Assembly (NCBI GenBank): GCA_000002445.1
Contig: CM000207.1
Location: forward strand, 1,440,001 to 1,504,000
Source: Trypanosoma brucei
Lineage: Eukaryota
Reading direction: 5' to 3'
DNA length: 64,000 nucleotides
A program made the translations under genes and the position numbers. How positions within the stretch are numbered: the stretch's first letter is position 1; each line of letters begins with the position of its first letter. Shown here piece after piece: positions 6,558 through 62,343 of this stretch. The notes below the pieces were generated by a model, which saw nothing but the letters and a program-made list of their open reading frames with translations, was not told where the DNA came from and searched no databases.

Positions 6558-7700
<1,143 letters not shown>

Positions 7701-8945
7701 TCAAATCACATGGTATAACTGCTTTGTTGAAGCAAAGGTAAAACAACAAGGAAACAACAAGGATTATTTGGCATCATCCCTGTTCTGTGGTAAATTAAGA
7801 ATTTATGGCTCTCGCCAGCATCATATCCAGTAGAGAAGAACATTATCAAAACTGTAAAAGAAAACCCTCAAAGAGTACCTCATTAGAGCAACCACGTTGT
7901 CATGGCAGATACTGCGGTCAAATGTGCACAGTAACACAACGATAAATTTCAATATAACTATCTACGAGCAGCAAAAAGGAGAGTAGAAAAAGCAGTGGTA
8001 ACCACAACAAGTGAATCAGCACCCCATACAATGGACGAGAACACAGCGCTTTTATTGATGCATGCGTGTCGGGGGAAGTCTTTTATATTGTGAAGGGACA
8101 AATAGAAAAAACAACAACACTCCCAATCACACATATACGGTACAGGGTTTCTGTTCCCCCATGCTGACCTTTCACGTATCACCTTTATTGTTTCCCTCTT
8201 CCCTCCCTTCTGTTGTTTGCCTGCAACAACAGTGTTACGGTTAATGAAAATTTACAGCCCACCACACCTGTACATTCATTTCAGCACGAGCTGAGATGTA
8301 GGCAAGTCTTTCATATGTTTGTCGTTCACACATCGTGTACCCCTCCACTGATTTTGTAACGAATTAACGTCTTAAATTGATTTTGTTAAGATACACCACT
8401 ATCACCTTCCAACACAGAGTCAAGGGAGCAAAAAAACACAATTATAGGCAGTACAAATAGACAACTTCGAGAAATTGGGACAAATGCTGTCAGATATGCA
8501 TTATACGCAATGAAGTAAGCAAAGGAAACTTTACGAATTTCTAAGATGAGGGCCATAGGTGTACGGCCTGCTTGTTTCATTAGTGCAGTTACCAAAACTA
8601 TCCCGCTAGCAAGATAAGGCGCATCCTTCCATTAATCTTGTCAGAAATGCTAGACATTCCTTCATGCCTCATCCAAGACCATGCCCACCTTTCTGGGTGT
8701 CATTATTTTGACCATATAAGCAGCAAGACAAAGGGTAGTATACCAACAACAAAAACAGCAACAACAATGAATAGATAATTGCTCGCCTTTCACACAAGAA
8801 AGGAAGATAAGCACACCTACTACTAGAGAAATGACATCTTAAAGACGAACAAAGTTGTTTTCCTCTCTTTTCGACTTTTCAACAACAGGTCCGTCATTAT
8901 TAACAACACTTTACTGATTTCACCTTTCCACAGGGGGAGGCACCA

Positions 8946-9977
<1,032 letters not shown>

Positions 9978-11450
9978 TTAACTAATCATTATGGCAGCAT
10001 ACTTTGTTGGTGATAACTCACATAACGTAAGTATTCAAACCACATGGTATAACTGCTTTGTTGAAGCAAAGGTAAAACAACAAGGAAACAACAAGGATTA
10101 TTTGGCATCATCCCTGTTCTGTGGTAAATTAAGAATTTATGGCTCTCGCCAGCATCATATCCAGCAGAGAAGAACATTATCAAAACTGTAAAAGAAAACC
10201 CTCAAAGAGTACCTCATTAGAGCAACCACGTTGTCATGGCAGATACTGCGGTCAAATGTGCACAGTAACACAACGATAAATTTCAATATAACTATCTACG
10301 AGCAGCAAAAAGGAGAGTAGAAAAAGCAGTGGTAACCACAACAAGTGAATCAGCACCCCATACAATGGACGAGAACACAGCGCTTTTATTGATGCATGCG
10401 TGTCGGGGGAAGTCTTTTATATTGTGAAGGGACAAATAGAAAAAACAACAACACTCCCAATCACACATATACGGTACAGGGTTTCTGTTCCCCCATGCTG
10501 ACCTTTCACGTATCACCTTTATTGTTTCCCTCTTCCCTCCCTTCTGTTGTTTGCCTGCAACAACAGTGTTACGGTTAATGAAAATTTACAGCCCACCACA
10601 CCTGTACATTCATTTCAGCACGAGCTGAGATGTAGGCAAGTCTTTCATATGTTTGTCGTTCACACATCGTGTACCCCTCCACTGATTTTTCTCTTGAAAA
10701 AACTTCATCACACATCTAAGTTTCATGTAAACGTATGTATCGCGGTGTGTAAATTGACGAACGCAGAGCAAACAAAAAAAACATTCAAAATAATACGGGT
10801 ATTTATAAATATCCGTACGTAGTATGGTCACCTTTTTGGCATCCAGCCACAGGTAAAATTATAAATGAAAAATAACTGCCAAAGCAGCAGACCTCAATGC
10901 GTGAACAGTTAAGTTCGGTACAACCCCACTAATACGAAAGGATTTATCAATTCGATAAACAGGAGGCTGATGTTCTCCTACTTAATATATTCTACGCAAA
11001 GAAGTAAGCAAAGGAAACTTTACGAATTTCTAAGATGAGGGCCATAGGTGTACGGCCTGCTTGTTTCATTAGTGCAGTTACCAAAACTATCCCGCTAGCA
11101 AGATAAGGCGCATCCTTCCATTAATCTTGTCAGAAATGCTGGACATTCCTTCATGCCTCATCCAAGACCATGCCCACCTTTCTGGGTGTCATTATTTTGA
11201 CCATATAAGCAGCAAGACAAAGGGTAGTATACCAACAACAAAAACAGCAACAACAATAAATAGATAATTGCTCGCCTTTCACACAAGAAAGGAAGATAAG
11301 CACACCTACTACTAGAGAAATGACATCTTAAAGACGAACAAAGTTGTTTTCCTCTCTTCTCGACTTTTCAACAACAGGTCCGTCATTATTAACAACACTT
11401 TACTGATTCACCTTTCCACAGGGGGAGGCACCATCAATGATTTTTCTTAT

Positions 11451-12422
11451 CTATGACTTTCCCTCGAAATTCATCATTTCTTCGTTTTTAATTACGATTG
11501 CAACAGGTACGCCATCTTCAGTCACTTCACGTGAATTGGCACCACAACATGGCAACCAGCGAATAAAAAGTTGCAGCTGCCATGGAGCTCCATCAGCGTT
11601 GTGACCTACTGCTATGAATGTTGCAATTGTTAAATAAATAGCTACCAACACGTCATCTGTGTAATGGAACCGAGAGGCAACGATGCAATAGTAGCCAAAA
11701 ATTGCTACCACAGTCACCACAGGACGAAACGACCAATGTACCATTGCCCCATAAATCCAGTGGAACATGAGATGAAGCGTCAGAATCACAGTATGGCCAC
11801 TGTACATGAGATCACCACAGTGTATGGAACCGGCACCAGCTGTAAGAACAGTAAGTATGACATCTTTCACACGATTTTCTATTTTCGGCGGGTCTTGGCA
11901 CAGGTCATCGGGATTGGGAAGCGACGTCACTACCATAATAACTGAACGGGAGAGTAGCAGGAGTGCGTATGATGTAATAAAACGGATCCATGCAATGGTA
12001 TGAACGTTGCGCAGTTCAATACGGCAATTCTCCTTACATAACCACACAGATAAAAAGAAGCGACTCACACCGGGAATGTTACATGGGAGTTCTGGTTCAC
12101 CCGACCCCACACAATGCCGGTGAAGAAGGTACAGTTTGAAAGCGGTGAAAACACTCAGAATATTCAAGAAACCGATACAGCAGTCTGCGACAGAAAACAA
12201 AAAAGGATACTTGTGCAATACCTCAAAACCGAGATCTGGTAGCGGCTTCGTCACCTTGGGGTCCGGCATACGTTCATGTGTGATTTGCAACAAAACAGCA
12301 AGGATAAAGACAACAATTACGAATACAACTGTGAATCGAATGACTTGCGTTCGTAATGGCAAGGGTTTCCTCATTCTGTTCCAAAAGGAACCACTATACA
12401 TTTCCACTGGTGGGACAGCCAT
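11451..12422 (-). CDS. SLS: sphingolipid synthase, tandem copy C (most diverged in TM2-3 region)
   Basis: 323-aa ORF with the same SMS-family motifs. Diverged segments: [53 protein letters not shown]. Unique tail ...[17 protein letters not shown]. Shares its downstream (3' UTR-side) sequence with copy B (8505..8945 about equals 10990..11450). Confidence 0.85.
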
Positions 12423-13744
12423 TGGTGGTGGTACTAATCCTGGTGGTGAGAGGGAGAAGAAAGGTTAACTAATCATTATGGCAGCATACTTTGTTGGTGA
12501 TAACTCACATAACGTAAGTATTCAAACCACATGGTATAACTGCTTTGTTGAAGCAAAGGTAAAACAACAAGGAAACAACAAGGCTTATTTGGCATCATCC
12601 CTGTTCTGTGGTAAATTAAGAATTTATGGCTCTCGCCAGCATCATATCCAGCAGAGAAGAACATTATCAAAACTGTAAAAGAAAACCCTCAAAGAGTACC
12701 TCATTAGAGCAACCACGTTGTCATGGCAGATACTGCGGTCAAATGTGCACAGTAACACAACGATAAATTTCAATATAACTATCTACGAGCAGCAAAAAGG
12801 AGAGTAGAAAAAGCAGTGGTAACCACAACAAGTGAATCAGCACCCCATACAATGGACGAGAACACAGCGCTTTTATTGATGCATGCGTGTCGGGGGAAGT
12901 CTTTTATATTGTGAAGGGACAAATAGAAAAAACAACAACACTCCCAATCACACATATACGGTACAGGGTTTCTGTTCCCCCATGCTGACCTTTCACGTAT
13001 CACCTTTATTGTTTCCCTCTTCCCTCCCTTCTGTTGTTTGCCTGCAACAACAGTGTTACGGTTAATGAAAATTTACAGCCCACCACACCTGTACATTCAT
13101 TTCAGCACGAGCTGAGATGTAGGCAAGTCTTTCATATGTTTGTCGTTCACACATCGTGTACCCCTCCACTGATTTTTCTCTTGAAAAAACTTCATCACAC
13201 ATCTAAGTTTCATGTAAACGTATGTATCGCGGTGTGTAAATTGACGAACGCACGGTGTACTTGTCAATATGCCCGAAGAAGAGTGATAATTAATATACGT
13301 TTTAGCTGATGATTGTAACAAAAATACGATCGCTGAAGGGGAAGAAAAAAAATAACAGCTTACATATACATATATATGTTTTCGCTGAGGTGCGGTTTAT
13401 TCGCTGCACGGTACCATAAGAAATATAGTTATTATTGAAGACAATTAAAATCTTATTTGTTCAGAATAAGTAAGTAAAAAGAATTTTACTATTATTGGGA
13501 GAGTATTTTCTTTTTTAAGGAAGGGTATTTATTCAATTCCCTTTTTTCCCCTAGAAGCAGCCCTGCTCGACCATTACTATCACTAGATCCTTCGTGGGCT
13601 CAAAATAGCTTTACGCTAAGCCAGGCGGACCAAAAAAATAGAAAATTAAGATTTGAGGCACACTTTCCGTATTACGATGTCTTCCGACAAAAAAAATAAT
13701 ATATATATTCAGCTATGCGGCTGAGGAGGTCATCCATCTATGAA

Positions 13745-14857
<1,113 letters not shown>

Positions 14858-16421: not shown

Positions 16422-17210
16422 CTAACGAGTAATCCTTTTTGCCAGCATCACTGCAAGCAGCAGAAATAGTAATCTTCTCAGGACACCGAAAATTGGGTGG
16501 CTTTGCTTTTCTTGTTTCCGGTGCCTGGAGGGTCTGCGGCGGGTACCTGACACAGCGCTTTCTCTGCTGGAGTCGGTGCCCTTTGGCAGCTCCACCCATC
16601 TACCCGCCTCGTCCATATACATACCAGATTTCAGTTTATTGTACTGTTGACTCATGCCAATGTAATTTCCCATAAACTGAAGCGCACTCCCAAACGTCAT
16701 TTGAATGACACCCGCAAACATCCCGCACATCTCCAAAAGACGCCCTACGAGCATGAAAGTCATTTGACTGCGCTGAAAGTCTTCTGACATCCCCATGCCG
16801 TACATACCAGGCATACCTAATCCACCATATAAGCCACCCATTCCTAAGCCTCCGTACATGCCAGGCATGCCGAGACCTCCATAACCCATTCCTAAGCCTC
16901 CGTAGCCCATGCCGAGACCCCCATAACCCATTCCTAAGCCTCCGTAGCCCATACCAGTGTTGTAGCTGTTCGCATATTCATTATTGTTGTTGTAGCGATT
17001 CGTTTGATCCACCGTGTTTACTGGCATAGCATTTTGAGAAGTACCCGCTGTTCCAGGTGCCGTGACTAGAGCATTAGAAGGTGGTGAAGTGCCCACCGGG
17101 CTCAGGGGTTGCTGTGCTAGTGAAGTGGTGGACGGCAGTTCACCGCTTGGCAGCGGGTTCTGTGCGGCCACTCCACCATTTCCTTCACTGACAGGAACTG
17201 CTGCCGACAT
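16422..17210 (-). CDS. Gly/Tyr/Met-rich YG-repeat membrane protein (possibly PEX13-like)
   Basis: 262-aa ORF with a Pro/Ser/Thr-rich N-terminus. Central 7-aa repeats (GMGYGGL)x4 then GMPGMYGG variants, encoded by a 21-nt tandem DNA repeat at about 16790-16960. A hydrophobic segment follows (FMLVGRLLEMCGMFAGVIQMTFGSALQFMG), and a basic C-terminal region and terminal hydrophobic stretch complete it. YG-rich repeat plus membrane segments resemble the Pex13 N-region. This is pattern recognition only. Confidence 0.45.
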   Translation of the reverse strand: MSAAVPVSEGNGGVAAQNPLPSGELPSTTSLAQQPLSPVGTSPPSNALVTAPGTAGTSQNAMPVNTVDQTNRYNNNNEYANSYNTGMGYGGLGMGYGGLGMGYGGLGMGYGGLGMPGMYGGLGMGGLYGGLGMPGMYGMGMSEDFQRSQMTFMLVGRLLEMCGMFAGVIQMTFGSALQFMGNYIGMSQQYNKLKSGMYMDEAGRWVELPKGTDSSRESAVSGTRRRPSRHRKQEKQSHPIFGVLRRLLFLLLAVMLAKRITR

Positions 17211-19126: not shown

Positions 19127-19753
19127 TCACGAACGACCCGGATGCTTTGAGGGGTGCTGGAAGGGGCACTGTTCCCCATACTTGCAGGCACCCTTATTAA
19201 AGTACCTGCACATCACTTGGCCGGTGCCCTCGCTGTGTCGGTGGGTGTGATATCCGTGGTTGGCGCCCCGACCGCGACCTCTAATATTACGCATGCCTTT
19301 ACGGTGTGTGCGGCTATCTTCCAAGTTGCCATCCTCCTCATGTTCATCCACTTGGCTCCCTGCGGGTCCCTGCTGCCGCGCGGACGTTGGACGGGTCTGC
19401 TGTTGAGGGTATGGAGATGCCGCCTCATTTGGTTTAGCTCGTAGTTTGTTAGTACCATCTTCTTCCGCCTCCTCAGGTCGGGGTCCGCGTGCTGGCGGCG
19501 TCCCATCACCCGCTTCACCAGGAGGCACGCGATGGCACTCCTCTACGATGTAATTCCCTATTTTCTGCATCCCACTGAGGTCCCCCTTGCAGTCCTTTAG
19601 CTTGAAGTACATCATGTCACTCTTATCCTGAGATACGCCATGCTTCACAACCTTACCATACTTCCCCACTTCCTTTAGCACTTGGTTCACTTCCGAGCTA
19701 CTCACACCTGAAAGCCAGAGAATCATTCTATGCTCCACACCTTTGTTGGATTG

Positions 19754-19784
<31 letters not shown>

Positions 19785-22219
19785 CTACTTTGCGTCGTCC
19801 TAGGTTGTGGGACCTGCAGAGCTGGTTTTGCTGCGCGGCCACGCTTGGAGCTGCCGTTCTCATCCTCCGCCTCCTGTGCGATGTTGTTTTGGATGGAATT
19901 ATTGCTGATAAAGCTGCGCAAATCATTCATCTCATGACCATCCCTATCATGCTGCGACTTCTCGTTGGAATGTAGAGCGGCCCAAAGCGTTTGAGATTGC
20001 TGAGACCCCAGATACGTCCTTAAACGTTCATCGTACATCTCCCTCGACATCGTTAGTAGCTCCTCCTTTTTTATGCCCGCCTCCAAAACGCTATTAACAA
20101 TCGATTCCGGTACATTCCGTTCGCGAAGAAGGCGCCGCAGCTCTGAGGCAGGTGGTGGCGACAAGTTAGCACTCGACAAGGCCCAAGTCATCTCATCATT
20201 CATCATGTCAACAGACATCGGTGCAGACGCCGGTGACGACGTATAACGGTGTGGCGGCTGCTGAAGGTGATGGTGATGGTGATGATGATGATGATGATGG
20301 TGGTGATGGTGATGGTGCACAGGGGCCACATGCTGCGCATGAAATATCGAATGGTGATGCGCCGGAACAATCGGTACTTGATGCGTTGCCTCTCCACCCA
20401 CAGAAGACGGTGCGCTCGGCTGAGGTGGCGGCTGCTGAGGTAATTTCGTCGGATGGAAGGAGACGTTGTGGTGGTGAAGGGGTTTTATTTGCGCCGGAGC
20501 CGCTTCCGCATTGTGTGCCATCGGTTTAGTTTCAGGTGCAGCGGTATGCTCTTGCTTCACGTTGTAAGAGGGTTGCGGTGGCGGAGGCGACGGGGGCACA
20601 ATTGGTTGCTGCTGCATAACGTCGTGGTGATGGTGGTGTATGTGGTGGTGATGGTGGTGGTGGTGGTGAGGCTGCTGCTGCTGTTGTTGATTCTGTTGAC
20701 TCTGCTGGTGGTGCTGAATTAGATGCAAGTGGTGATGGTGGTGCGGTAGCGGCCGCTGCGCGCTCGGCGGAGGAGGTGACACCGCACCGACAGCAGGAGT
20801 CGCAGGGGCGGTGGTGTTCATCGCACTGATTTGAGGCGAGGGCTGTTGAGACGCCATCGACGGTGTTGGTTGCGGTATCGGTTGCTTCGTCATGGTGGGG
20901 TGCTGAATATACTGATTCGCGTTGTGTCGCTGAGGTGCAATTACCCTTGCACTCGTCGGAGAGCCTGTGGGCCCTATATGATGTGGATGTTGATTGTGAT
21001 TAACATGCGATGGCACCGGCGGTGAGTTGTTACGTACGTTATAATTCGGCTGCGACACGCCCGCTGCACCCTGCTGGGGGGTCGGTGACGGACCCATACC
21101 ACGCCATGCCCCGCGCTGGTGTGAAGCTTCATCGTGGCCCTGTAAACTCTGCTGATGCAAAACGCGGTCGACTGGTCGTTTCGGCAGCCCCGTCGCCACA
21201 GGAATCCGTGGGAACGCATCGTTCTGTGGGTTCTCAAGCTGCTGATGATGCCGATCCTGCTGCTGCAATCCAACTGGCCCAGTTCCTACTACGACATGAT
21301 GGTGATGGTGATGGTGGTGATGGTGGTGAGGCACACTAGGAACCTGTGGCCGTTGTGGGGCAGTGAACTGATTCACTGGCAGACGGGCTCGAAGCTGATG
21401 GTGATGAGCATGATGAGGAAGCACCTCCCGCTCAGCCTCCACGTGCTTCCTCTGAGCGTTAGACCACCCACCGGTAGTGACCGACGGAATCACCTCCTCC
21501 TCCGGCTGATTCATTCCTGCCGGTGCTGCTCCATCCGCATATGTGTTGGAGACCCGCGGCAATTTGGCTTCGACAGTGGGCTGAACTTCGCCCCTGCGTT
21601 CCTTGCCAAACTCAGTAAACGATGGTCGCGCGAGTCCTACAGCGTTTCCGTACGACTGCGATTGAACGGCACCACGAGCGCCGTCGCTGTAGGTGTTGGA
21701 GCCGCCCGTGCGATTCGACGGGGGGTTTATAAGTTCCTGAGCCTGGTGTACCAATGCCTCCAGAGCCGACGGTGAGCAGATGGCATGAAACAAGTAGACG
21801 TCGTCCAGGGAACTCCCTATAACGGTTGCAAGCATTCTTGCATGCTCGGCACCGTAGCTAAGCTCCAGATTGGAGTAGAGCATGTCACCCAATTGCGAGC
21901 GCAGCAAGCGCGGCTCGACCTCGCTTCTAAGAATATCCACGAGTACCACAGATGCCCCAGAAAATGCTGAGTACATGTCCTCCACAGTACTGTTTATGAG
22001 GCCACGCCGAAACACCTCCCGTTCCAGCACACGAGTCAACACACCAAAGTTCTGCCGTAGGTGAAGGAGGGCAACGGGTGTATTGTCTTGGTTCTTATCC
22101 TCCTCCCCCTGCGCCGATGCTGAATGGTTGTCATCTCGCTCTCTTTGTTGCTCCTCCGCATTAGCCGGTAGGGAAGTAAGCGTTTCGGGAGCTTCCTTCT
22201 CCTTTTCGCTAGAATACAT
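19127..22219 (-). CDS. large CCCH zinc-finger protein (1030 aa) with poly-His/poly-Gln low-complexity regions
   Basis: Single C-terminal C-x7-C-x5-C-x3-H finger (CRYFNKGACKYGEQCPFQH). Several homopolymer runs, including H17, H11, H9 and Q12 tracts, encoded by CAC/CAT and CAG repeats. The N-terminal 200 aa are non-repetitive. Size and architecture fit a T. brucei ZC3H-family RNA-binding protein. It could be ZC3H28, but that is an uncertain recollection. Confidence 0.75.
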
Positions 22220-57690: not shown

Positions 57691-58068
57691 ATTCGGACCC
57701 TCTCGGTTTCAAGGAAAATATTCAACAAGTTAAAAAAAGGTACGAATATTAAGCAGTATCACTCAAAAGGTACGACAACAATGACAAAAAGTTTCCTCCT
57801 TCCCACACTTTGGAAAGGCAGATGTGTGACCAGACGAACAAGCAAATGCACTTGTGTAGGAAGAACTAGTCATAAAGAACATCTACTATAACAAATAACA
57901 TAGGTGAAAACCGAATGTGGTCATTGACATAATTCCCACTTTTCGCAGCAGTGACACAAAGGTCACTCAGATGTTACCTCCTTGTGCAATTAGTTGCCCT
58001 TGCCTTCTAAGTTTAGGCACATCCGTAGATTTCATTCCACAAAGGATGCACAACACGGTAAGGGGTGG

Positions 58069-61000
58069 CTATCGGTGCAGAGGAGGTAACGAGGGAAGTT
58101 CCCGCCCACCCTTCTTCGGCACATCCTCAACACGCACATGCCTGAGCACTCCTGGCGGCATTGGGCGCCATCGCAAAAGTCGTTTGACTGTCTCCCGCTC
58201 CGCTGTCATGAATTCGGTATCCGGCACGGGTGGTACTCCCCGCGGGTACCTCAGCGACTTCGCCCTATTTTCGCGCTCGACTGCCTCCATTGCGGATTGT
58301 CTTCGGGCGCCCACCTCAACGAGATTCTCGACCAAATGCCGTTGTTGTCGACGGAGAGCATCCGCATCAAGACGTTTGACGCGAAGACTTTCTCGCGTTG
58401 ACTCTATATCGCGGAGTAACATTTCCATGGCCTGGTCGTGGGTCGACAGTATAACCTCATCGGCATCAATGCCAACGTTCATCTCATTGATTTCCTCCTC
58501 CTGATGAGTCGTGAGCATACAGCGTTTGATGGGCCGACCGGAGCATAACTCAAGCATCTGCATCTCTGTATGGTACGTCTCAAATCGGAAGGCAACACGG
58601 ATGTCGGAAAGATGCGTCCGCAGGGGGTCATTTCCAAGAGACGAGCTCATATACCAACAATCACCGATCGCCTCTCGCTTAAACGTATAATCAAACCCAC
58701 ACTGAAGCACGGAGTTGCGCGCGATTTCACATAGATCATTCGGGGATAAACCCCACACCCGTGCCGCAACGCTGTATTCTTCGATAAGTGGTTCTTGCGT
58801 CTGGTGAAACATCATCGGATCATCGGTACTAAGTGAAACATTCAGTCCGCGTCTAAAAAATTCTGGGAACGGATTGTTCAAAAACCTCAAAAAAAGCGCG
58901 TTGTTGCTCAGCGGCGAAACGTGCAAACCAATCCGCGAAAGATAGTACAAGTACTGCATAGGAGGATCCTTACGAAGATTGATGCCGTGGCATATGCTAT
59001 TGGCGCAGAGAAACGCCCCATAGAGGTGGCCAACGGATCCAGATTCTCCACAGTGCGGCCGCAGGGCAAATGTCGAAAAGCCACGCGAGGCGCGGAACTC
59101 ATTGAGTGTGCGGATGTTGGCATACAAGTAGTATAGATAGTAGTCGTAGGAGGGATTTTCGACGGACGTCCACGCCCATGGGGATACCACGGTGAAAGGT
59201 GTGTCTATCGTTGCTTCGTTGTCGACAGAATCAAAACCGCTCACATGGTTCAAGAAATTATGCACCAGTGGATGCTGCGACGGGTGCAAAGATGCCTCCC
59301 AAAGCGGCTGGAAGATATTCTGAAGGTACTGGCCGAAACTGCCGATGATATTTTGGGCACGGAACACCTTGTAAACACGTGGAACCTGGATGATCCATTT
59401 GTTGTGTTGTGAAGACATACCGTGTGTAGAGAACCAGAGAGCAAGGCTATCCCATTCCTTGACGTTGGTCCCATAAATCGAGACACGATTCTCAGCATAC
59501 GTATGTCGATCTCTTGAGTATTGAGCAAACACGTCATGAATCAACTCAGCAAAATACCGCCCTTTCATAAAGTTGTCCGTTTTGAGCAGTAGCGAACGCA
59601 TGTCAGGTGATTCAAGAGGATTATATTTATTATTGAAATTGTCAAACCGCTCGAACAATGTGTGGTCCGCCTGAACATTAAGCTGATCAACTGTCAGATT
59701 CGGTGTGATACCGTTGTTCTTAAAGAACTGGGCGAGTGTGAGGATTGTATCGCCCTTCTTAAAGGCGATATCGTCACCACTGTAGACAAGCTTCTTCACT
59801 ACGAAATTCAGAAGTTGTCTACCGGTCATTCCAGCCGCCATGTGAATGTGCGTATCCACCTTAACCGCTTGATAAATGTCTCGGTTTGATGATGTACGCT
59901 CTTCCGTCGTCCCTGCCTCGTTGGCGTGGTTGAGGGCAAGGTGTAGACGAAACTTGTGCTCAAGATTTTCCAACCGTTGGTGCGCAAAGTCCTTCACCTC
60001 TGGGCGTGAACAAATTCCATGAAGTTCAGCCAAATCACTATTAAAGGCCTCCAGTGTGGGAACATGCCGAGGCCACGCGTGGACGACATTCTTTGGGAAC
60101 GAAATGAAAACTGCGTCACTAGCGGCATATGTCCAGTCATCTTCATTGAAACTATCTGTTTTCCTCCGGAAGTCGGCTTCGACTGTACGCTCCGAGGTTG
60201 TTTCCCATGGATTAGGCGGTTCCCATATGTACTTAAAACGCAAATCTAGCGCCCGCGCGACGTGAGGGGCGGCGGCGACCGCTGATTTCACTTCCTTTAG
60301 TGGTCCACTTAGTACCGTACGGGGAAAACGAATGCGCATGTCCAAGACAGTGTCGTATTCCACTTCCTTCACGCGACTCAGGTAGTACCACCGTGAAGGG
60401 CCGGCAACCTCCTGTGGTGACAATTGGTTGAGGCGCAAGTCACGAAGCAAACTATGTTCTAGCTCCCACGATTCTTCACGAAATGCGAGACGCACGTTTG
60501 TCACCTGACTCTTTTCAAACTCGTTACCGTCGACACCCCGATGATACCGCTGCCCAAGCCATTCCTTCTTCCGCTCCGATGGAAAGGAAGACATTATGAC
60601 ACTGTTTCGTGCTAGCTCCGTAACATCTAGGAAACTCAAACGAAATAAATTCATTGCAGTTCCATATTCCTCTATCAATGGCGTCATACTGTGATGAAAG
60701 TAAAGGGGCGCATGTGTACTTATCGCCACCTTGAGGCAGCGGTGTAGAAAGTTAGGAAGGGGATGCTTCTGGTATGGAGTGACACCGCGCACATGATCGT
60801 GAAGGGGACTGACAGTAAGACCAACGCCGTGGAGACCGCAAAGATATTGCAACACGGGGTAATCCATAATTCTCGTGGCTCGCGTAATCACGTCCCCTAG
60901 CAAATATCCAGCCAGAAGCGCGTTCACACAATTCTGGTGAGTGCCACTAATGCGGAGTTGGAAAGTGTTGAGCCCCCTCATTTTTCTAAGATCATTCAGA

Positions 61001-62343
61001 ACCTTCATGTTTGCATAGATGTAATACACGTAATACAATCCATTCGGCTTGTCTTCATAGTTAATATCGCTTGGTACAGGTGATTCCACGTCCAAATCCG
61101 CCTCAACACCGGTAGACACGGCCTCAACTTGAAAGCCACCAAGCTGCTTTAACAGCCAAACAAGAGAGGAATACTTTTGTGTTGATGGTTGTAATGTGGC
61201 CTTGAAGAGCGGCAGAAAAAGGTTATCAAGCTGGTCTTGGATTGTTTTGCATTCAACCGCGTAGTTCACCCCGGAAGGAACCTCGTGCTTCAAACGGAGC
61301 TCCAGGATCCACATATTATTTTTGTAGGGTCCAATGTTCTGCCCATGTAGTGCCTCTGCAATATCGAACAACTCTCCAGGGTAGGTTGCATACACTGGAA
61401 TAGAGTACTCCGTCGCTTGTACATTATATGTCCGCTGTTCCTCCCTCTGCATCCGACGCTGAAGAAAGCGCGCCGTGCAGGAACCCCGAAGGTGAAGAAA
61501 GCTGTACCGCAGTTCCGCACTGAGTGGTTTATTGTCACGTTTACGATCGTCTTTATCATAATTTCCATGATATAATTGCCACCCCAGGCCCTCGACAGTC
61601 AGACGTGTGGGATCCTCCACGCCATTAGCTTGGAACAGTTCCCTCAAAGTGGAGTTGGATCCGTCGCGCAAGCGAATCGGGGCATCAGGGGTGTGGCGAT
61701 ACCAATCTTGGATGAAGTCCAACAGCTCCTGACCATCAGGGAATCGTGACAGGAGAACACAATTATCTACCTTCGTGACGTTGGAAAAGACCCCACCGGC
61801 CTTGCTAAAGCTATGTCTTTCCTCAATATCGGCATTAAGAAGGAAAAACATCCTAGACCGCTCCTGTATAATGTTCAGCCGGTGCGAACAAGCTTTAATG
61901 CATGTTGTATTCCCGACAGTCAGTTTCAGCTGCTGCACATCCTTGACAAACTTTTTCCACGGTTGTGAACACACAATTGACACATCCCTGCAAGAGGCAC
62001 GATAAACACCATCCTCCTGTGAAATAGATACATGCTTCAGATTTGCTGACAAATGTGAGACCTCGTTAGACTTCTTATACTGGGTCCTCATGTCGATGGC
62101 AAGATCGAGACGTTTGTACACCTTGCGCAAATCCACTCCGCCGTCATCTCCGTCGATGACCACCTTGAACATATTTGATTCCTGCAACTGACATTTCACG
62201 TAGTCATTGCGCCCTTCAGTAGTTGCAGTTGGATGCGGTTGCGGTGACTGGCCGAACTGATTCACACTCTGCCATGGCCTAAGAAAAAATGAGCTACGCC
62301 CGGGAGCCAGAGACACACTCATTCTTGCCTCCTCCCCTAACAC
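58069..62343 (-). CDS. AMP deaminase (1424 aa) with an N-terminal degenerate deaminase-like duplicate
   Basis: C-terminal catalytic domain intact: VDTHIH (Zn ligands, + strand 59842-59859), FALRPHCGESG, SLSTDDPMMFHQTQEPLIEEY, ARNSV. An N-terminal region from about aa 350 to 580 aligns to the same domain, but the catalytic residues are replaced: RISGTHQNC for PHCGESG, and AISTHAPLYFHHSMTPLIEEY for SLSTDDP. Confidence 0.9.
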   Translation of the reverse strand: MLGEEARMSVSLAPGRSSFFLRPWQSVNQFGQSPQPHPTATTEGRNDYVKCQLQESNMFKVVIDGDDGGVDLRKVYKRLDLAIDMRTQYKKSNEVSHLSANLKHVSISQEDGVYRASCRDVSIVCSQPWKKFVKDVQQLKLTVGNTTCIKACSHRLNIIQERSRMFFLLNADIEERHSFSKAGGVFSNVTKVDNCVLLSRFPDGQELLDFIQDWYRHTPDAPIRLRDGSNSTLRELFQANGVEDPTRLTVEGLGWQLYHGNYDKDDRKRDNKPLSAELRYSFLHLRGSCTARFLQRRMQREEQRTYNVQATEYSIPVYATYPGELFDIAEALHGQNIGPYKNNMWILELRLKHEVPSGVNYAVECKTIQDQLDNLFLPLFKATLQPSTQKYSSLVWLLKQLGGFQVEAVSTGVEADLDVESPVPSDINYEDKPNGLYYVYYIYANMKVLNDLRKMRGLNTFQLRISGTHQNCVNALLAGYLLGDVITRATRIMDYPVLQYLCGLHGVGLTVSPLHDHVRGVTPYQKHPLPNFLHRCLKVAISTHAPLYFHHSMTPLIEEYGTAMNLFRLSFLDVTELARNSVIMSSFPSERKKEWLGQRYHRGVDGNEFEKSQVTNVRLAFREESWELEHSLLRDLRLNQLSPQEVAGPSRWYYLSRVKEVEYDTVLDMRIRFPRTVLSGPLKEVKSAVAAAPHVARALDLRFKYIWEPPNPWETTSERTVEADFRRKTDSFNEDDWTYAASDAVFISFPKNVVHAWPRHVPTLEAFNSDLAELHGICSRPEVKDFAHQRLENLEHKFRLHLALNHANEAGTTEERTSSNRDIYQAVKVDTHIHMAAGMTGRQLLNFVVKKLVYSGDDIAFKKGDTILTLAQFFKNNGITPNLTVDQLNVQADHTLFERFDNFNNKYNPLESPDMRSLLLKTDNFMKGRYFAELIHDVFAQYSRDRHTYAENRVSIYGTNVKEWDSLALWFSTHGMSSQHNKWIIQVPRVYKVFRAQNIIGSFGQYLQNIFQPLWEASLHPSQHPLVHNFLNHVSGFDSVDNEATIDTPFTVVSPWAWTSVENPSYDYYLYYLYANIRTLNEFRASRGFSTFALRPHCGESGSVGHLYGAFLCANSICHGINLRKDPPMQYLYYLSRIGLHVSPLSNNALFLRFLNNPFPEFFRRGLNVSLSTDDPMMFHQTQEPLIEEYSVAARVWGLSPNDLCEIARNSVLQCGFDYTFKREAIGDCWYMSSSLGNDPLRTHLSDIRVAFRFETYHTEMQMLELCSGRPIKRCMLTTHQEEEINEMNVGIDADEVILSTHDQAMEMLLRDIESTRESLRVKRLDADALRRQQRHLVENLVEVGARRQSAMEAVERENRAKSLRYPRGVPPVPDTEFMTAERETVKRLLRWRPMPPGVLRHVRVEDVPKKGGRELPSLPPLHR

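What the first reader, a model, noticed from the sequence alone, without database searches (positions are those of the whole stretch)
58069..62343. AMP deaminase with an internal duplication in which the N-terminal copy is a catalytically dead pseudo-domain
The C-terminal half holds a complete AMPD catalytic domain (VDTHIH, PHCGESG, SLSTDDP...PLIEEY). The region about 60600-61300, roughly aa 350-580, aligns collinearly to the same domain: YVYYIYANMKVLNDLRKMRGLNTFQLR against YYLYYLYANIRTLNEFRASRGFSTFALR, and HAPLYFHHSMTPLIEEY...ARNSV against TDDPMMFHQTQEPLIEEY...ARNSV. In that N-terminal copy the zinc-binding and catalytic residues are all substituted. That makes it a tandem pseudoenzyme plus enzyme, which could act as a regulatory or nucleotide-sensing module. 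I do not recall this architecture being described as such for this protein.
Basis: seen in the sequence. Interest (0 to 1): 0.6.

Follow-up and report, generated by a model that had tools for sequence, protein, structure and literature searches.

The report
AMP deaminase with dead duplicate domain
This trypanosome gene encodes an AMP deaminase made of two full copies of the enzyme in one chain, the first with every catalytic residue replaced and the second intact, and the same layout recurs across the wider group (Euglenozoa) without having been described in any paper I could find.

Summary
The minus-strand ORF encodes a 1417-aa protein if translation starts at the ATG at 62322. It contains two complete AMP-deaminase (AMPD) units, at aa 52-633 and aa 664-1264.

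- **Similarity between the units:** they align at 27-28% identity (E about 1e-42 to 1e-46). The real score is 160 bits, against 17.9 +/- 1.9 bits for shuffled controls.
- **Profile match:** each half alone matches Pfam PF19326 (N half E=6e-84, C half E=4e-187).
- **Fold:** an AlphaFold model of the N unit superposes on human AMPD2 with TM 0.86.
- **Catalytic residues:** all 7 zinc-binding and catalytic positions are replaced in the N unit and all 7 are kept in the C unit.

By orthology and synteny the gene corresponds to T. brucei Tb927.9.9740, a protein localised to the cytoplasm and the paraflagellar rod (PFR).

The dead-then-active layout also occurs in Leishmania, prokinetoplastids, diplonemids and euglenids. 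The N units group together in a tree (58/60 bootstraps), which points to one ancient duplication. That duplication also gave rise to paralogues in which both units are dead.

Positions of the former active site drift faster than the rest of the dead unit, while structural motifs are kept. I therefore favour a built-in partner or scaffold role, like a fused "prozyme", over ligand sensing at the old pocket. That function is inferred, not shown. No paper describing this architecture was found.

The parts
58069..62322 (-). Complete coding sequence of the tandem AMP deaminase: 1417 aa, ATG at 62322, stop codon at 58069-58071. It is the orthologue of T. brucei Tb927.9.9740.
   Evidence: ORF list. 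The identical 1417-aa product is annotated in GCA_001457755.2. The Leishmania orthologue cluster contains CBZ13110.1, the reciprocal best hit of Tb927.9.9740 in the PFR preprint.
62170..62322 (-). N-terminal head, aa 1-51. It is poorly conserved and lies outside the duplicated unit.
   Evidence: BLASTP against orthologues only aligns from about aa 47 onward.
60424..62169 (-). N unit, aa 52-633: a full-length, catalytically dead copy of the AMP-deaminase core (pseudo-domain).
   Evidence: PF19326 E=6.3e-84. PDB 2a3l 1.7e-63. AF2 pLDDT 85.9, pTM 0.88. TM 0.86-0.87 to 8hu6. Keeps 42 of 82 canonical-invariant columns.
61753..61770 (-). VDNCVL, in place of the VDTHIH zinc-binding HxH motif (His to Cys, His to Leu).
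   Evidence: Alignments; coordinates.
60934..60954 (-). RISGTHQ, in place of PHCGESG (zinc-binding His to Ser, catalytic Glu to His).
60868..60885 (-). TRATRI, in place of CHGINL (catalytic His to Arg).
60706..60720 (-). STHAP, in place of STDDP (zinc-binding Asp to His, catalytic Asp to Ala).
60655..60681 (-). PLIEEYGTA: a structural motif retained in the dead copy. The EEY is invariant in every AMPD unit examined, dead or active.
60334..60423 (-). Inter-unit linker, aa 634-663, predicted disordered.
   Evidence: pLDDT below 50 at model residues 545-566. The wider segment aa 633-700, which runs into the C unit, is about 70% identical to Leishmania.
58531..60333 (-). C unit, aa 664-1264: an intact AMP-deaminase catalytic core.
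   Evidence: PF19326 E=3.7e-187. The whole protein scores 887 bits against TIGR01429 (equivalog cut-off 726). Catalytic signature HHHEHDD and 79 of 82 canonical-invariant columns. 82% identical to Leishmania.
59842..59859 (-). VDTHIH: the zinc-binding HxH motif of the active unit.
59038..59058 (-). PHCGESG: zinc-binding His and catalytic Glu of the active unit.
58975..58992 (-). CHGINL: catalytic His of the active unit.
58816..58830 (-). STDDP: zinc-binding Asp and catalytic Asp of the active unit.
58072..58530 (-). C-terminal tail, aa 1265-1417. It is rich in charged residues and its sequence looks helical or coiled-coil-like. It is conserved at about 37% only within the trypanosomatid orthologues. 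No PTS1-type ending.
   Evidence: Sequence printed; BLASTP to orthologues; weak BAR hit only. It was not modelled: the AF2 construct ended at aa 1275.

Best explanation
**What is shown.** The gene encodes an AMP deaminase that arose by an ancient in-frame tandem duplication of the whole AMPD core.
- The C unit (aa 664-1264) keeps every zinc-binding and catalytic residue. It is the enzyme that converts AMP to IMP and ammonia.
- The N unit (aa 52-633) keeps the AMPD fold and the family's structural motifs. It has lost all seven metal-binding and catalytic residues and most of the other residues that are invariant in canonical AMPDs.
- The duplication predates the radiation of Euglenozoa.

**What is inferred.** Canonical AMPDs work as tetramers built from dimers. 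I propose that the dead N unit acts as a permanently attached pseudo-subunit. It would pack against the catalytic unit within the chain, so the protein would be a built-in heterodimer with one active site per pair. The N unit would stabilise or tune the catalytic unit and offer surfaces for assembling with other AMPD-like paralogues at the PFR. This resembles the trypanosomatid "prozyme" principle, in which a dead paralogue partners the enzyme, but fused into one polypeptide. I think ligand sensing through the former active site is unlikely.
For: **Duplication.**
- N half against C half: E=7e-42. Unit against unit: 160 bits against 17.9 +/- 1.9 bits for shuffles.
- Two PF19326 hits.
- N unit alone hits PDB AMPDs at 1e-63 and 1e-60.

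**Fold.** The N-unit model has pLDDT 85.9 and pTM 0.88, with TMq 0.86-0.87 to 8hu6.

**Dead and live status.** The catalytic signature is CLSHRHA in the N unit and HHHEHDD in the C unit. Of 82 canonical-invariant columns, the N unit keeps 42 and the C unit keeps 79.

**Constraint on the N unit.**
- It is full length and 51% identical between T. brucei and Leishmania, against 82% for the C unit.
- Retained columns are 36/42 identical between the two. Ex-active-site columns are 13/39 identical, against a background of 246/497.

**Fixed N-C packing.** The two-unit AF2 model has pTM 0.85 over 1186 residues. Two freely hinged units of equal size should score about half that.

**N-unit-specific motif.** LTVEGLGLxP is conserved across paralogues. 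It sits where canonical AMPDs carry a dimer-interface Asp (with PMC12246493).

**Antiquity.**
- The same dead-then-active layout is found in Leishmania, Papus, Diplonema, Namystynia, Hemistasia and Entosiphon. Euglena gracilis also has a tandem protein, but both of its units are degenerate.
- The N units form one clan in 58/60 NJ bootstraps.

**Cell-biology context.** Tb927.9.9740 localises to the cytoplasm and the outer PFR domain. A second AMPD-like protein, Tb927.9.7180, is also in the PFR proteome. AMPDs are known to form homo- and heterotetramers (PMC12246493).
Against: - No biochemical data exist for this protein. The activity of the C unit and any effect of the N unit on it are inferred from sequence only.
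- I could not obtain model coordinates or PAE, so I could not test whether the predicted N-C packing mimics the AMPD2 dimer in 8HU6.
- The canonical inter-subunit salt-bridge positions (Lys at column 109, Asp at column 182) are not kept in the N units. If there is an intramolecular pseudo-dimer, its interface has been remodelled. My mapping of those two positions rests on motif spacing, not on a structure.
- The pTM comes from a shallow alignment of 33 sequences.
- Grouping of the N units in the NJ tree could be inflated by long-branch attraction, and three unstable units were left out of the bootstrap.
- The PFR preprint reports an AMP deaminase deletion mutant among those with little or no effect on growth or Rod1 localisation. 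It does not say which AMPD gene was deleted. So no phenotype yet ties the architecture to a function.
Confidence: 0.55

Rival explanations
1. Nucleotide-sensing regulatory module. The dead N unit still binds AMP, ATP, GTP, IMP or phosphate and passes that signal allosterically to the catalytic unit.
For: - Canonical AMPDs are regulated by ATP, GTP and phosphate, and the ATP allosteric site lies on the catalytic-domain fold itself (PMC13277832). A duplicated fold could therefore keep such a site.
- The N unit keeps the barrel and several conserved charged residues: K of KVD, R of LR, EEY, and R..R..E.
- In deeper-branching lineages the N unit still has the catalytic Glu, His and Asp-Asp (Diplonema and Entosiphon: SRNEHDD).
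Against: - In the trypanosomatid orthologues all seven catalytic and metal positions are lost, along with most of the other columns that are invariant in canonical AMPDs.
- These positions differ between T. brucei (CLSHRHA) and Leishmania (ALTKRES).
- These ex-pocket columns are less conserved (13/39) than the domain average (246/497). That is the opposite of what a conserved ligand site predicts.
- The position of the ATP allosteric site in the sequence is not known to me, so that variant could not be tested.
Confidence: 0.2
2. Docking or hetero-oligomerisation module. The dead N unit mainly tethers the enzyme to the paraflagellar rod, or to other AMPD-like paralogues, rather than acting on its own catalytic unit.
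For: - Tb927.9.9740 is found in the cytoplasm and the outer PFR domain. A second AMPD-like protein, Tb927.9.7180, is also in the PFR proteome.
- Euglenozoa carry several tandem paralogues in which both units are dead, for example T. vivax P0005 (GYFGNNR / NRSEYDS). These can only have non-catalytic roles.
- AMPD isoforms form heterotetramers.
Against: - No interaction data exist.
- The C-terminal tail is an equally plausible targeting element.
- The orthologue persists in Perkinsela, which the PFR preprint lists among the organisms without a flagellum, so PFR docking cannot be the only role.
- This rival is compatible with the best explanation rather than exclusive of it.
Confidence: 0.18
3. 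Functionless relic: a duplicated domain that is decaying neutrally.
For: The N unit evolves faster than the C unit (51% against 82% identity between T. brucei and Leishmania) and has lost catalysis.
Against: - It has been kept full length and in frame across kinetoplastids, diplonemids and euglenids.
- It keeps 42 of 82 family-invariant columns, and 36/42 of those are identical to Leishmania.
- It is confidently predicted to fold.
- It has its own derived conserved motifs.
Confidence: 0.04
4. Artefact: two neighbouring AMPD genes merged by misassembly or by reading through a stop.
For: None found.
Against: - There is one uninterrupted ORF in the window.
- An independent assembly holds the identical annotated protein.
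- Single-chain tandem proteins occur in Leishmania genomes and in transcriptome-derived proteins of Papus, Entosiphon, Euglena and Namystynia.
Confidence: 0.01

Closest known systems
Canonical eukaryotic AMP deaminase (human AMPD2, PDB 8HU6; Arabidopsis FAC1, PDB 2A3L; Pfam PF19326, TIGR01429)
   Same: The C unit has the complete family signature, all catalytic and zinc-binding residues, 38-41% identity and TM 0.87-0.89 to the solved structures. The N unit has the same fold (TM 0.86).
   Different: Canonical AMPDs have one catalytic core preceded by a divergent, non-homologous N-terminal region. Here that place is taken by a second, catalytically dead AMPD core.
Trypanosomatid prozymes (AdoMetDC/prozyme, PMC5201418 and PMC6221367; PRMT1 ENZ/PRO, bioRxiv 10.1101/776112)
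   Same: A catalytically dead paralogue of the enzyme is retained in the same lineage. In the known cases it forms the functional complex with the enzyme.
   Different: Prozymes are separate gene products that heterodimerise with the enzyme and are regulated independently. Here the dead copy is fused to the enzyme. Activation by the dead copy is not shown.
Single-chain pseudoenzyme-enzyme tandems such as JAK JH2-JH1 pseudokinase-kinase or receptor tyrosine phosphatase D1-D2 (from my own knowledge, as an analogy only)
   Same: An internal duplication of a catalytic domain, with one copy inactivated and kept as a regulatory or scaffolding module.
   Different: The folds and chemistry are unrelated. 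Regulation by the dead copy is demonstrated there and not here.
Other Euglenozoan tandem AMPD-like paralogues found here (T. brucei Q386C9 cluster P0040; T. vivax P0005; P0004, P0007, P0010, P0013 and others)
   Same: The same two-unit architecture. Their N units fall in the same clan as this N unit.
   Different: In many of them the C unit is degenerate too (NRSEYDS, NxQEHNQ, or HHHEHDG). The window protein belongs to the lineage that kept a fully intact C unit.
Amoebozoan tandem AMPDs (Entamoeba invadens, Pelomyxa schiedti, Soliformovum, Pyxidicula)
   Same: Two AMPD cores in one chain, one of them altered at the catalytic residues.
   Different: The polarity is reversed: an intact N unit, and a C unit with DD changed to DN or DT and often the Glu changed. 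Their units cluster apart from the Euglenozoan N-unit clan, so this is probably an independent duplication.

Membership tests
AMP deaminase (PF19326 / TIGR01429), C unit | Profile match above the curated cut-off | tested here: met
   PF19326 scores 624 bits for the C half alone (cut-off 27). TIGR01429 scores 887 bits for the whole protein (equivalog cut-off 726.3), with the best stretch at aa 760-1263.
AMP deaminase (PF19326 / TIGR01429), C unit | Zinc ligands (HxH, His of PHCGE, first Asp of STDDP) and catalytic Glu, His and Asp | tested here: met
   Signature HHHEHDD; 79 of 82 canonical-invariant columns kept.
AMP deaminase (PF19326 / TIGR01429), C unit | AMP to IMP deaminase activity | not testable with these tools
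   No biochemical study of Tb927.9.9740 or its orthologues was found.
AMP deaminase family, N unit | Homology and fold of the AMPD core | tested here: met
   PF19326 scores 283 bits, E=6.3e-84, over profile positions 120-625 of 630. PDB 2a3l E=1.7e-63. TMq 0.86-0.87 to 8hu6.
AMP deaminase family, N unit | Zinc ligands and catalytic residues | tested here: not met
   All 7 positions are substituted (CLSHRHA) in three independent alignments. The N unit is therefore a homologue of the family but not a functional AMP deaminase.
Pseudoenzyme (a homologue of an enzyme that lacks its catalytic motifs), N unit | Clear homology to an enzyme family, loss of essential catalytic residues, and evidence of retention under constraint | tested here: met
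   Homology and loss as in the two rows above. Retained full length across Euglenozoa, 51% identical between T. brucei and Leishmania, 36/42 of the kept invariant columns identical.
Trypanosomatid prozyme | A catalytically dead paralogue of the enzyme | tested here: met
Trypanosomatid prozyme | A separate polypeptide that heterodimerises with the enzyme | tested here: not met
   The dead copy is fused in the same chain. So this may work like a prozyme but is not a member of that class as defined.
Trypanosomatid prozyme | The dead copy binds and activates the enzyme | not testable with these tools
   The only indirect hint is pTM 0.85 for the two-unit model. No coordinates or PAE were available, and there is no biochemistry.
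Orthologue of T. brucei Tb927.9.9740 | Reciprocal-best-hit link and chromosomal context | tested here: met
   The top hit cluster (P0002) contains L. major CBZ13110.1, listed as the reciprocal best hit of Tb927.9.9740. The window carries the four-gene PAP2_C (sphingolipid synthase-like) array, a Rad51/DMC1-like gene and other neighbours. That this context matches chromosome 9 rests on my own recollection of gene numbering.

The most novel reading that the evidence does not exclude
Euglenozoa may have built a whole family of fused AMPD "prozyme" proteins from one ancient tandem duplication.
- In the lineage of this gene, the dead N unit would be an obligatory intramolecular partner that sets the activity or nucleotide regulation of the single live site.
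- The paralogues with one or both units dead would co-assemble with it into mixed AMPD-like oligomers. These would anchor AMP deamination in the paraflagellar rod next to the rod's adenylate kinases, giving a dedicated adenine-nucleotide buffering and signalling module for flagellar beating.
- Amoebozoa would have reached a mirror-image architecture independently.
Probability: 0.2. Interest if true: 0.7.

Novelty: new variant of a known kind. Interest (0 to 1): 0.5.

Why it matters
- **Role in metabolism.** AMP deaminase controls the adenylate energy charge and the flow from adenine to guanine nucleotides. Trypanosomatids depend entirely on purine salvage, so their purine enzymes are studied as drug targets.
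- **A difference from the host enzymes.** The trypanosome enzyme carries a full-length dead copy of itself, conserved since the common ancestor of kinetoplastids, diplonemids and euglenids. The human AMPDs have no such copy. If the dead unit is needed for stability, regulation or localisation, its interface with the live unit would be a parasite-specific site to target.
- **The prozyme theme.** It would extend the use of dead paralogues as enzyme partners, already known in trypanosomatids, to a fused, single-chain form.
- **Annotation.** Several proteins annotated as "AMP deaminase" in the paraflagellar rod proteome are probably not enzymes at all.
- **Limits.** The gene itself is already annotated, and domain databases would show the two hits. 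The news is the interpretation and the phylogenetic breadth, not a new kind of system.

Tried and rejected
- **The search for homologous proteins.** With the N half as query it returned a single hit (P0001), probably because of the word-index pre-filter. The exhaustive representative search was needed to see the family.
- **Interdomain geometry.** I wanted to compare the predicted N-C packing with the AMPD2 dimer in 8HU6. The tools return no coordinates or PAE, and the afdb50 library was unavailable. Only the pTM argument remains.
- **Canonical dimer salt bridge.** I tried to use the AMPD1 K287-D361 salt bridge as a marker of a conserved dimer interface. These positions are not kept in the N units, so simple conservation of the canonical interface is rejected. 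The column mapping is by motif spacing only.
- **Alternative metal site.** I considered that the new Cys, His and His at three ex-catalytic positions of the T. brucei N unit might form a metal site. I rejected this because Leishmania has Ala, Lys and Glu there.
- **Glycosomal targeting.** Rejected: the C-terminus ...PPLHR is not PTS1-like.
- **Antisense ORF 57917-58504 (+).** It lies inside the 3' end of the gene and I treated it as spurious.
- **Literature.** Eight searches found no description of a tandem or pseudo-AMPD. The only paper naming the gene annotates one deaminase domain.
- **tRNA and tandem-repeat scans of the window.** Nothing relevant to the finding.

Full report
**1. The observation**

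The window contains one long minus-strand ORF at 58069-62343. The GTG at 62343 is only the ORF finder's alternative start. The first ATG, at 62322, gives a 1417-aa protein. Exactly this sequence is an annotated gene product in NCBI assembly GCA_001457755.2, flanked by the same SCAMP, BRCT-like and PRKCSH genes. I use the 1417-aa numbering below.

The two N/C motif pairs it quoted appear in the BLASTP alignment of the N half against the C half.

The similarity is far beyond chance.
- BLASTP of N half against C half gives 27% identity over 568 columns, E=7e-42.
- Unit against unit scores 160 bits, against 17.9 +/- 1.9 bits (maximum 26.6) for 100 shuffles.
- The N half on its own matches Pfam PF19326 (AMP_deaminase) at E=6.3e-84 over profile positions 120-625 of 630. 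The C half matches at E=3.7e-187.
- The N half alone also finds the solved AMPDs 2a3l (E=1.7e-63) and 8hu6 (E=3.5e-60).

**2. Extent and anatomy**

The duplication is not confined to about aa 350-580. It covers the entire AMPD core.
- The N unit is aa 52-633 and the C unit is aa 664-1264.
- Both begin with the short hairpin/helix motif that precedes the barrel in canonical AMPDs: VVIDGDDGG...AIDMRTQY in the N unit and FPRTVLSGP...ALDLRFKY in the C unit.
- Between the units lies a roughly 30-residue segment predicted to be disordered.
- After the C unit comes a 153-residue charged tail whose sequence looks helical; it was not modelled.

AlphaFold2 models built on alignments of tandem homologues are confident.
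- The N unit alone has pLDDT 85.9 and pTM 0.88.
- Both units together (1186 residues) have pLDDT 85.8 and pTM 0.85.
- The N-unit model superposes on human AMPD2 (8hu6) with TM 0.86-0.87 at 26-27% identity, E=3e-35.
- The two-unit model hits the same structures through its C unit, with TM 0.87-0.89 normalised to the target.

**3. Dead and live copies**

I built a profile from the hits and aligned every AMPD unit to it. I then read out seven positions: the two His of HxH, the His and Glu of PHCGE, the His of CHG, and the two Asp of STDDP.
- The C unit reads HHHEHDD, the canonical state.
- The N unit reads CLSHRHA. Three independent alignments agree on this.

Of 82 columns that are at least 95% invariant in 71 canonical single-domain AMPDs, the C unit keeps 79 and the N unit keeps 42.
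- The lost columns include the seven catalytic and metal positions, together with many other columns that are invariant in canonical AMPDs. Whether those others contact the substrate was not tested.
- The kept columns are motifs present in every unit examined, dead or alive: KVD, the LN..R helix, SP, T.P, L.EEY, D..E.A..S, K, and R...R......E.

**4. Identity and distribution**

An exhaustive phmmer search with the N half against 1.84 billion representative proteins gave 1078 hits. About fifty of the best seventy-five are proteins with two AMPD units.

The best hit, P0002, represents the Leishmania orthologues. Its cluster includes L. major CBZ13110.1. A preprint on the paraflagellar rod proteome lists that protein as the reciprocal best hit of T. 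brucei Tb927.9.9740 (bioRxiv 10.1101/2024.04.19.590284).

The window also carries four tandem PAP2_C genes, a Rad51/DMC1-like gene, an MCM, a TTL and other genes, all on the minus strand. From my own recollection, this fits that region of chromosome 9.

The preprint places Tb927.9.9740 in the cytoplasm and the outer PFR domain. It annotates a single deaminase domain. It also reports an AMP deaminase deletion mutant among those with little or no effect on growth or Rod1 localisation, without saying which AMPD gene was deleted.

The dead-then-active layout is found in several lineages:
- Leishmania (ALTKRES / HHHEHDD)
- the prokinetoplastid Papus
- the diplonemids Diplonema, Namystynia and Hemistasia
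- the euglenid Entosiphon

Euglena gracilis (P0017) also has two units, but both are degenerate (SRTEHDD / YHH-NHF).

In the deeper-branching lineages the N unit has lost the three His ligands but still has Glu, His and Asp-Asp (SRNEHDD). The degeneration was therefore stepwise and is most complete in trypanosomatids.

In an NJ tree of all units, the Euglenozoan N units form one clan, separate from all C units and from canonical AMPDs. Bootstrap support is 58/60 after removing three unstable units. Long-branch attraction is a caveat. Together with shared derived motifs (KVDN, LTVEGLGLxP, GLNTxQ), this supports one duplication before the Euglenozoan radiation, followed by gene duplication.

Many paralogues have lost catalytic residues in both units:
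- T. vivax P0005, annotated "adenosine monophosphate deaminase", reads GYFGNNR / NRSEYDS.
- The T. brucei protein Q386C9 has a C unit reading HHHEHDG.

**5. What the dead unit is likely to do**

Between T. brucei and Leishmania, the N unit is 51% identical and the C unit 82%. The segment aa 633-700, which spans the linker and the start of the C unit, is about 70% identical.

Within the N unit:
- family-invariant columns that were kept are 36/42 identical
- columns that were lost (the former pocket) are 13/39 identical
- the domain background is 246/497

The former active site is therefore among the least constrained parts of the dead unit, while the fold-defining and surface motifs are held. 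This argues against conserved ligand binding in the old pocket, and for a structural role.

Canonical AMPDs act as homo- or heterotetramers built from dimers (PMC12246493). The two-unit model has a pTM of 0.85, which would not be expected for two freely hinged halves.

The N units carry a derived but strongly conserved motif, LTVEGLGLxP, at the place where canonical AMPDs have a dimer-interface Asp. The mapping is by motif spacing only.

My best reading is that the dead unit is a built-in pseudo-subunit. It would pack against the catalytic unit and may also mediate assembly with other AMPD-like paralogues at the PFR. This works like the trypanosomatid prozymes (for that literature) but in fused form. 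Every step beyond "dead fold, retained under constraint" is inference.

Rivals:
- A nucleotide sensor using a site outside the old pocket. [quoted passage not shown]
- A pure docking module.
- A neutral relic (very unlikely).
- An assembly artefact (excluded).

**6. Comparison with what is known, and novelty**

The C unit passes every sequence-level membership test for AMP deaminase. The N unit is a family homologue that fails the catalytic-residue test, so it is a pseudoenzyme domain. It is not a prozyme in the strict sense, because it is not a separate polypeptide.

Eight full-text searches found no paper describing a tandem or pseudo-AMPD in any organism.

The gene is nevertheless annotated in public genomes, and any Pfam scan shows both hits. 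I therefore rate it as a new variant of a known kind rather than something categorically new.

**7. Verdict**

- Interest is moderate (0.5). This is a well-supported, apparently unreported, lineage-wide pseudoenzyme-enzyme fusion in a drug-target pathway, with testable consequences. It has no functional data yet.

Noticed in passing
Hits: P0004, P0005, P0007, P0010, P0011, P0013-P0016, P0020, P0022, P0023: Many Euglenozoan tandem AMPD-like proteins have lost the catalytic residues in both units, with recurring C-unit signatures NRSEYDS and NxQEHNQ. One is T. vivax 'adenosine monophosphate deaminase' (P0005), which by its product name is probably the orthologue of the PFR protein Tb927.9.7180. 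These are annotated as enzymes but are probably not.
   Followed up: partly
P0040 cluster (T. brucei Q386C9 / XP_828464.1, 1558 aa): A second T. brucei tandem paralogue has a highly degenerate N unit (RRSRGID). Its C unit is intact except that the second Asp of STDDP is Gly (HHHEHDG). That signature is shared by P0042, P0054, P0074 and P0083. Its activity status is unclear.
   Followed up: no
P0018, P0019, P0021, P0024, P0030, P0043, P0025, P0032 (Soliformovum, Pelomyxa, Entamoeba invadens, Pyxidicula): Amoebozoa have tandem AMPDs with the opposite polarity: an intact N unit, and a C unit with DD changed to DN or DT and often the Glu changed. Their units cluster apart from the Euglenozoan N-unit clan, so this looks like an independent, convergent duplication.
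   Followed up: partly
P0027 (Logan assembly, 1354 aa) and P0011 (eukprot, 7575 aa): P0027 has two fully intact units that are each other's closest relatives, which suggests a recent duplication in an unidentified organism. P0011 is a 7575-aa protein with a tandem of two dead units at its C-terminus.
   Followed up: no
HMM columns 176-185 of the N units; window about 61540-61570 (LTVEGLGWQL): The motif LTVEGLGLxP is specific to N units and is conserved across all Euglenozoan paralogues. It replaces the canonical L(S/T)VDxLDVHA segment, which contains a dimer-interface Asp in human AMPD1.
   Followed up: partly
window 6558-14812 (-): Four tandem paralogous genes with a PAP2_C domain (6558-7655, 8946-9935, 11451-12422, 13745-14812). 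This looks like the trypanosome sphingolipid synthase array.
   Followed up: no
window 1-64000: All 22 ORFs of at least 250 aa lie on the minus strand, so this is one polycistronic unit. They include PSP1, a CCCH zinc-finger protein in a GC-rich stretch (19127-22219), TTL, MCM, a Rad51/DMC1-like protein, a TPR+TMEM33 protein, a proteasome alpha subunit, His_Phos_1, PRKCSH, a BRCT-like protein and SCAMP. AT-rich stretches without long ORFs lie at 1-4 kb and 24-28 kb (GC 0.32-0.36).
   Followed up: partly
window 16798-16952 (inside ORF 16422-17210, -): A 42-bp tandem repeat of about 3 copies (81-90% matches) lies inside an ORF with no Pfam match.
   Followed up: no
window 57917-58504 (+): A 195-aa ORF antisense to the 3' end of the AMPD gene. 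It is most likely spurious.
   Followed up: no
The word-indexed homology search returned a single hit for the N half. It missed even the protein's own cluster and the Leishmania orthologues, which the exhaustive search found at E=5e-262. This matters for judging negative results from that tool on eukaryotic proteins.
   Followed up: yes
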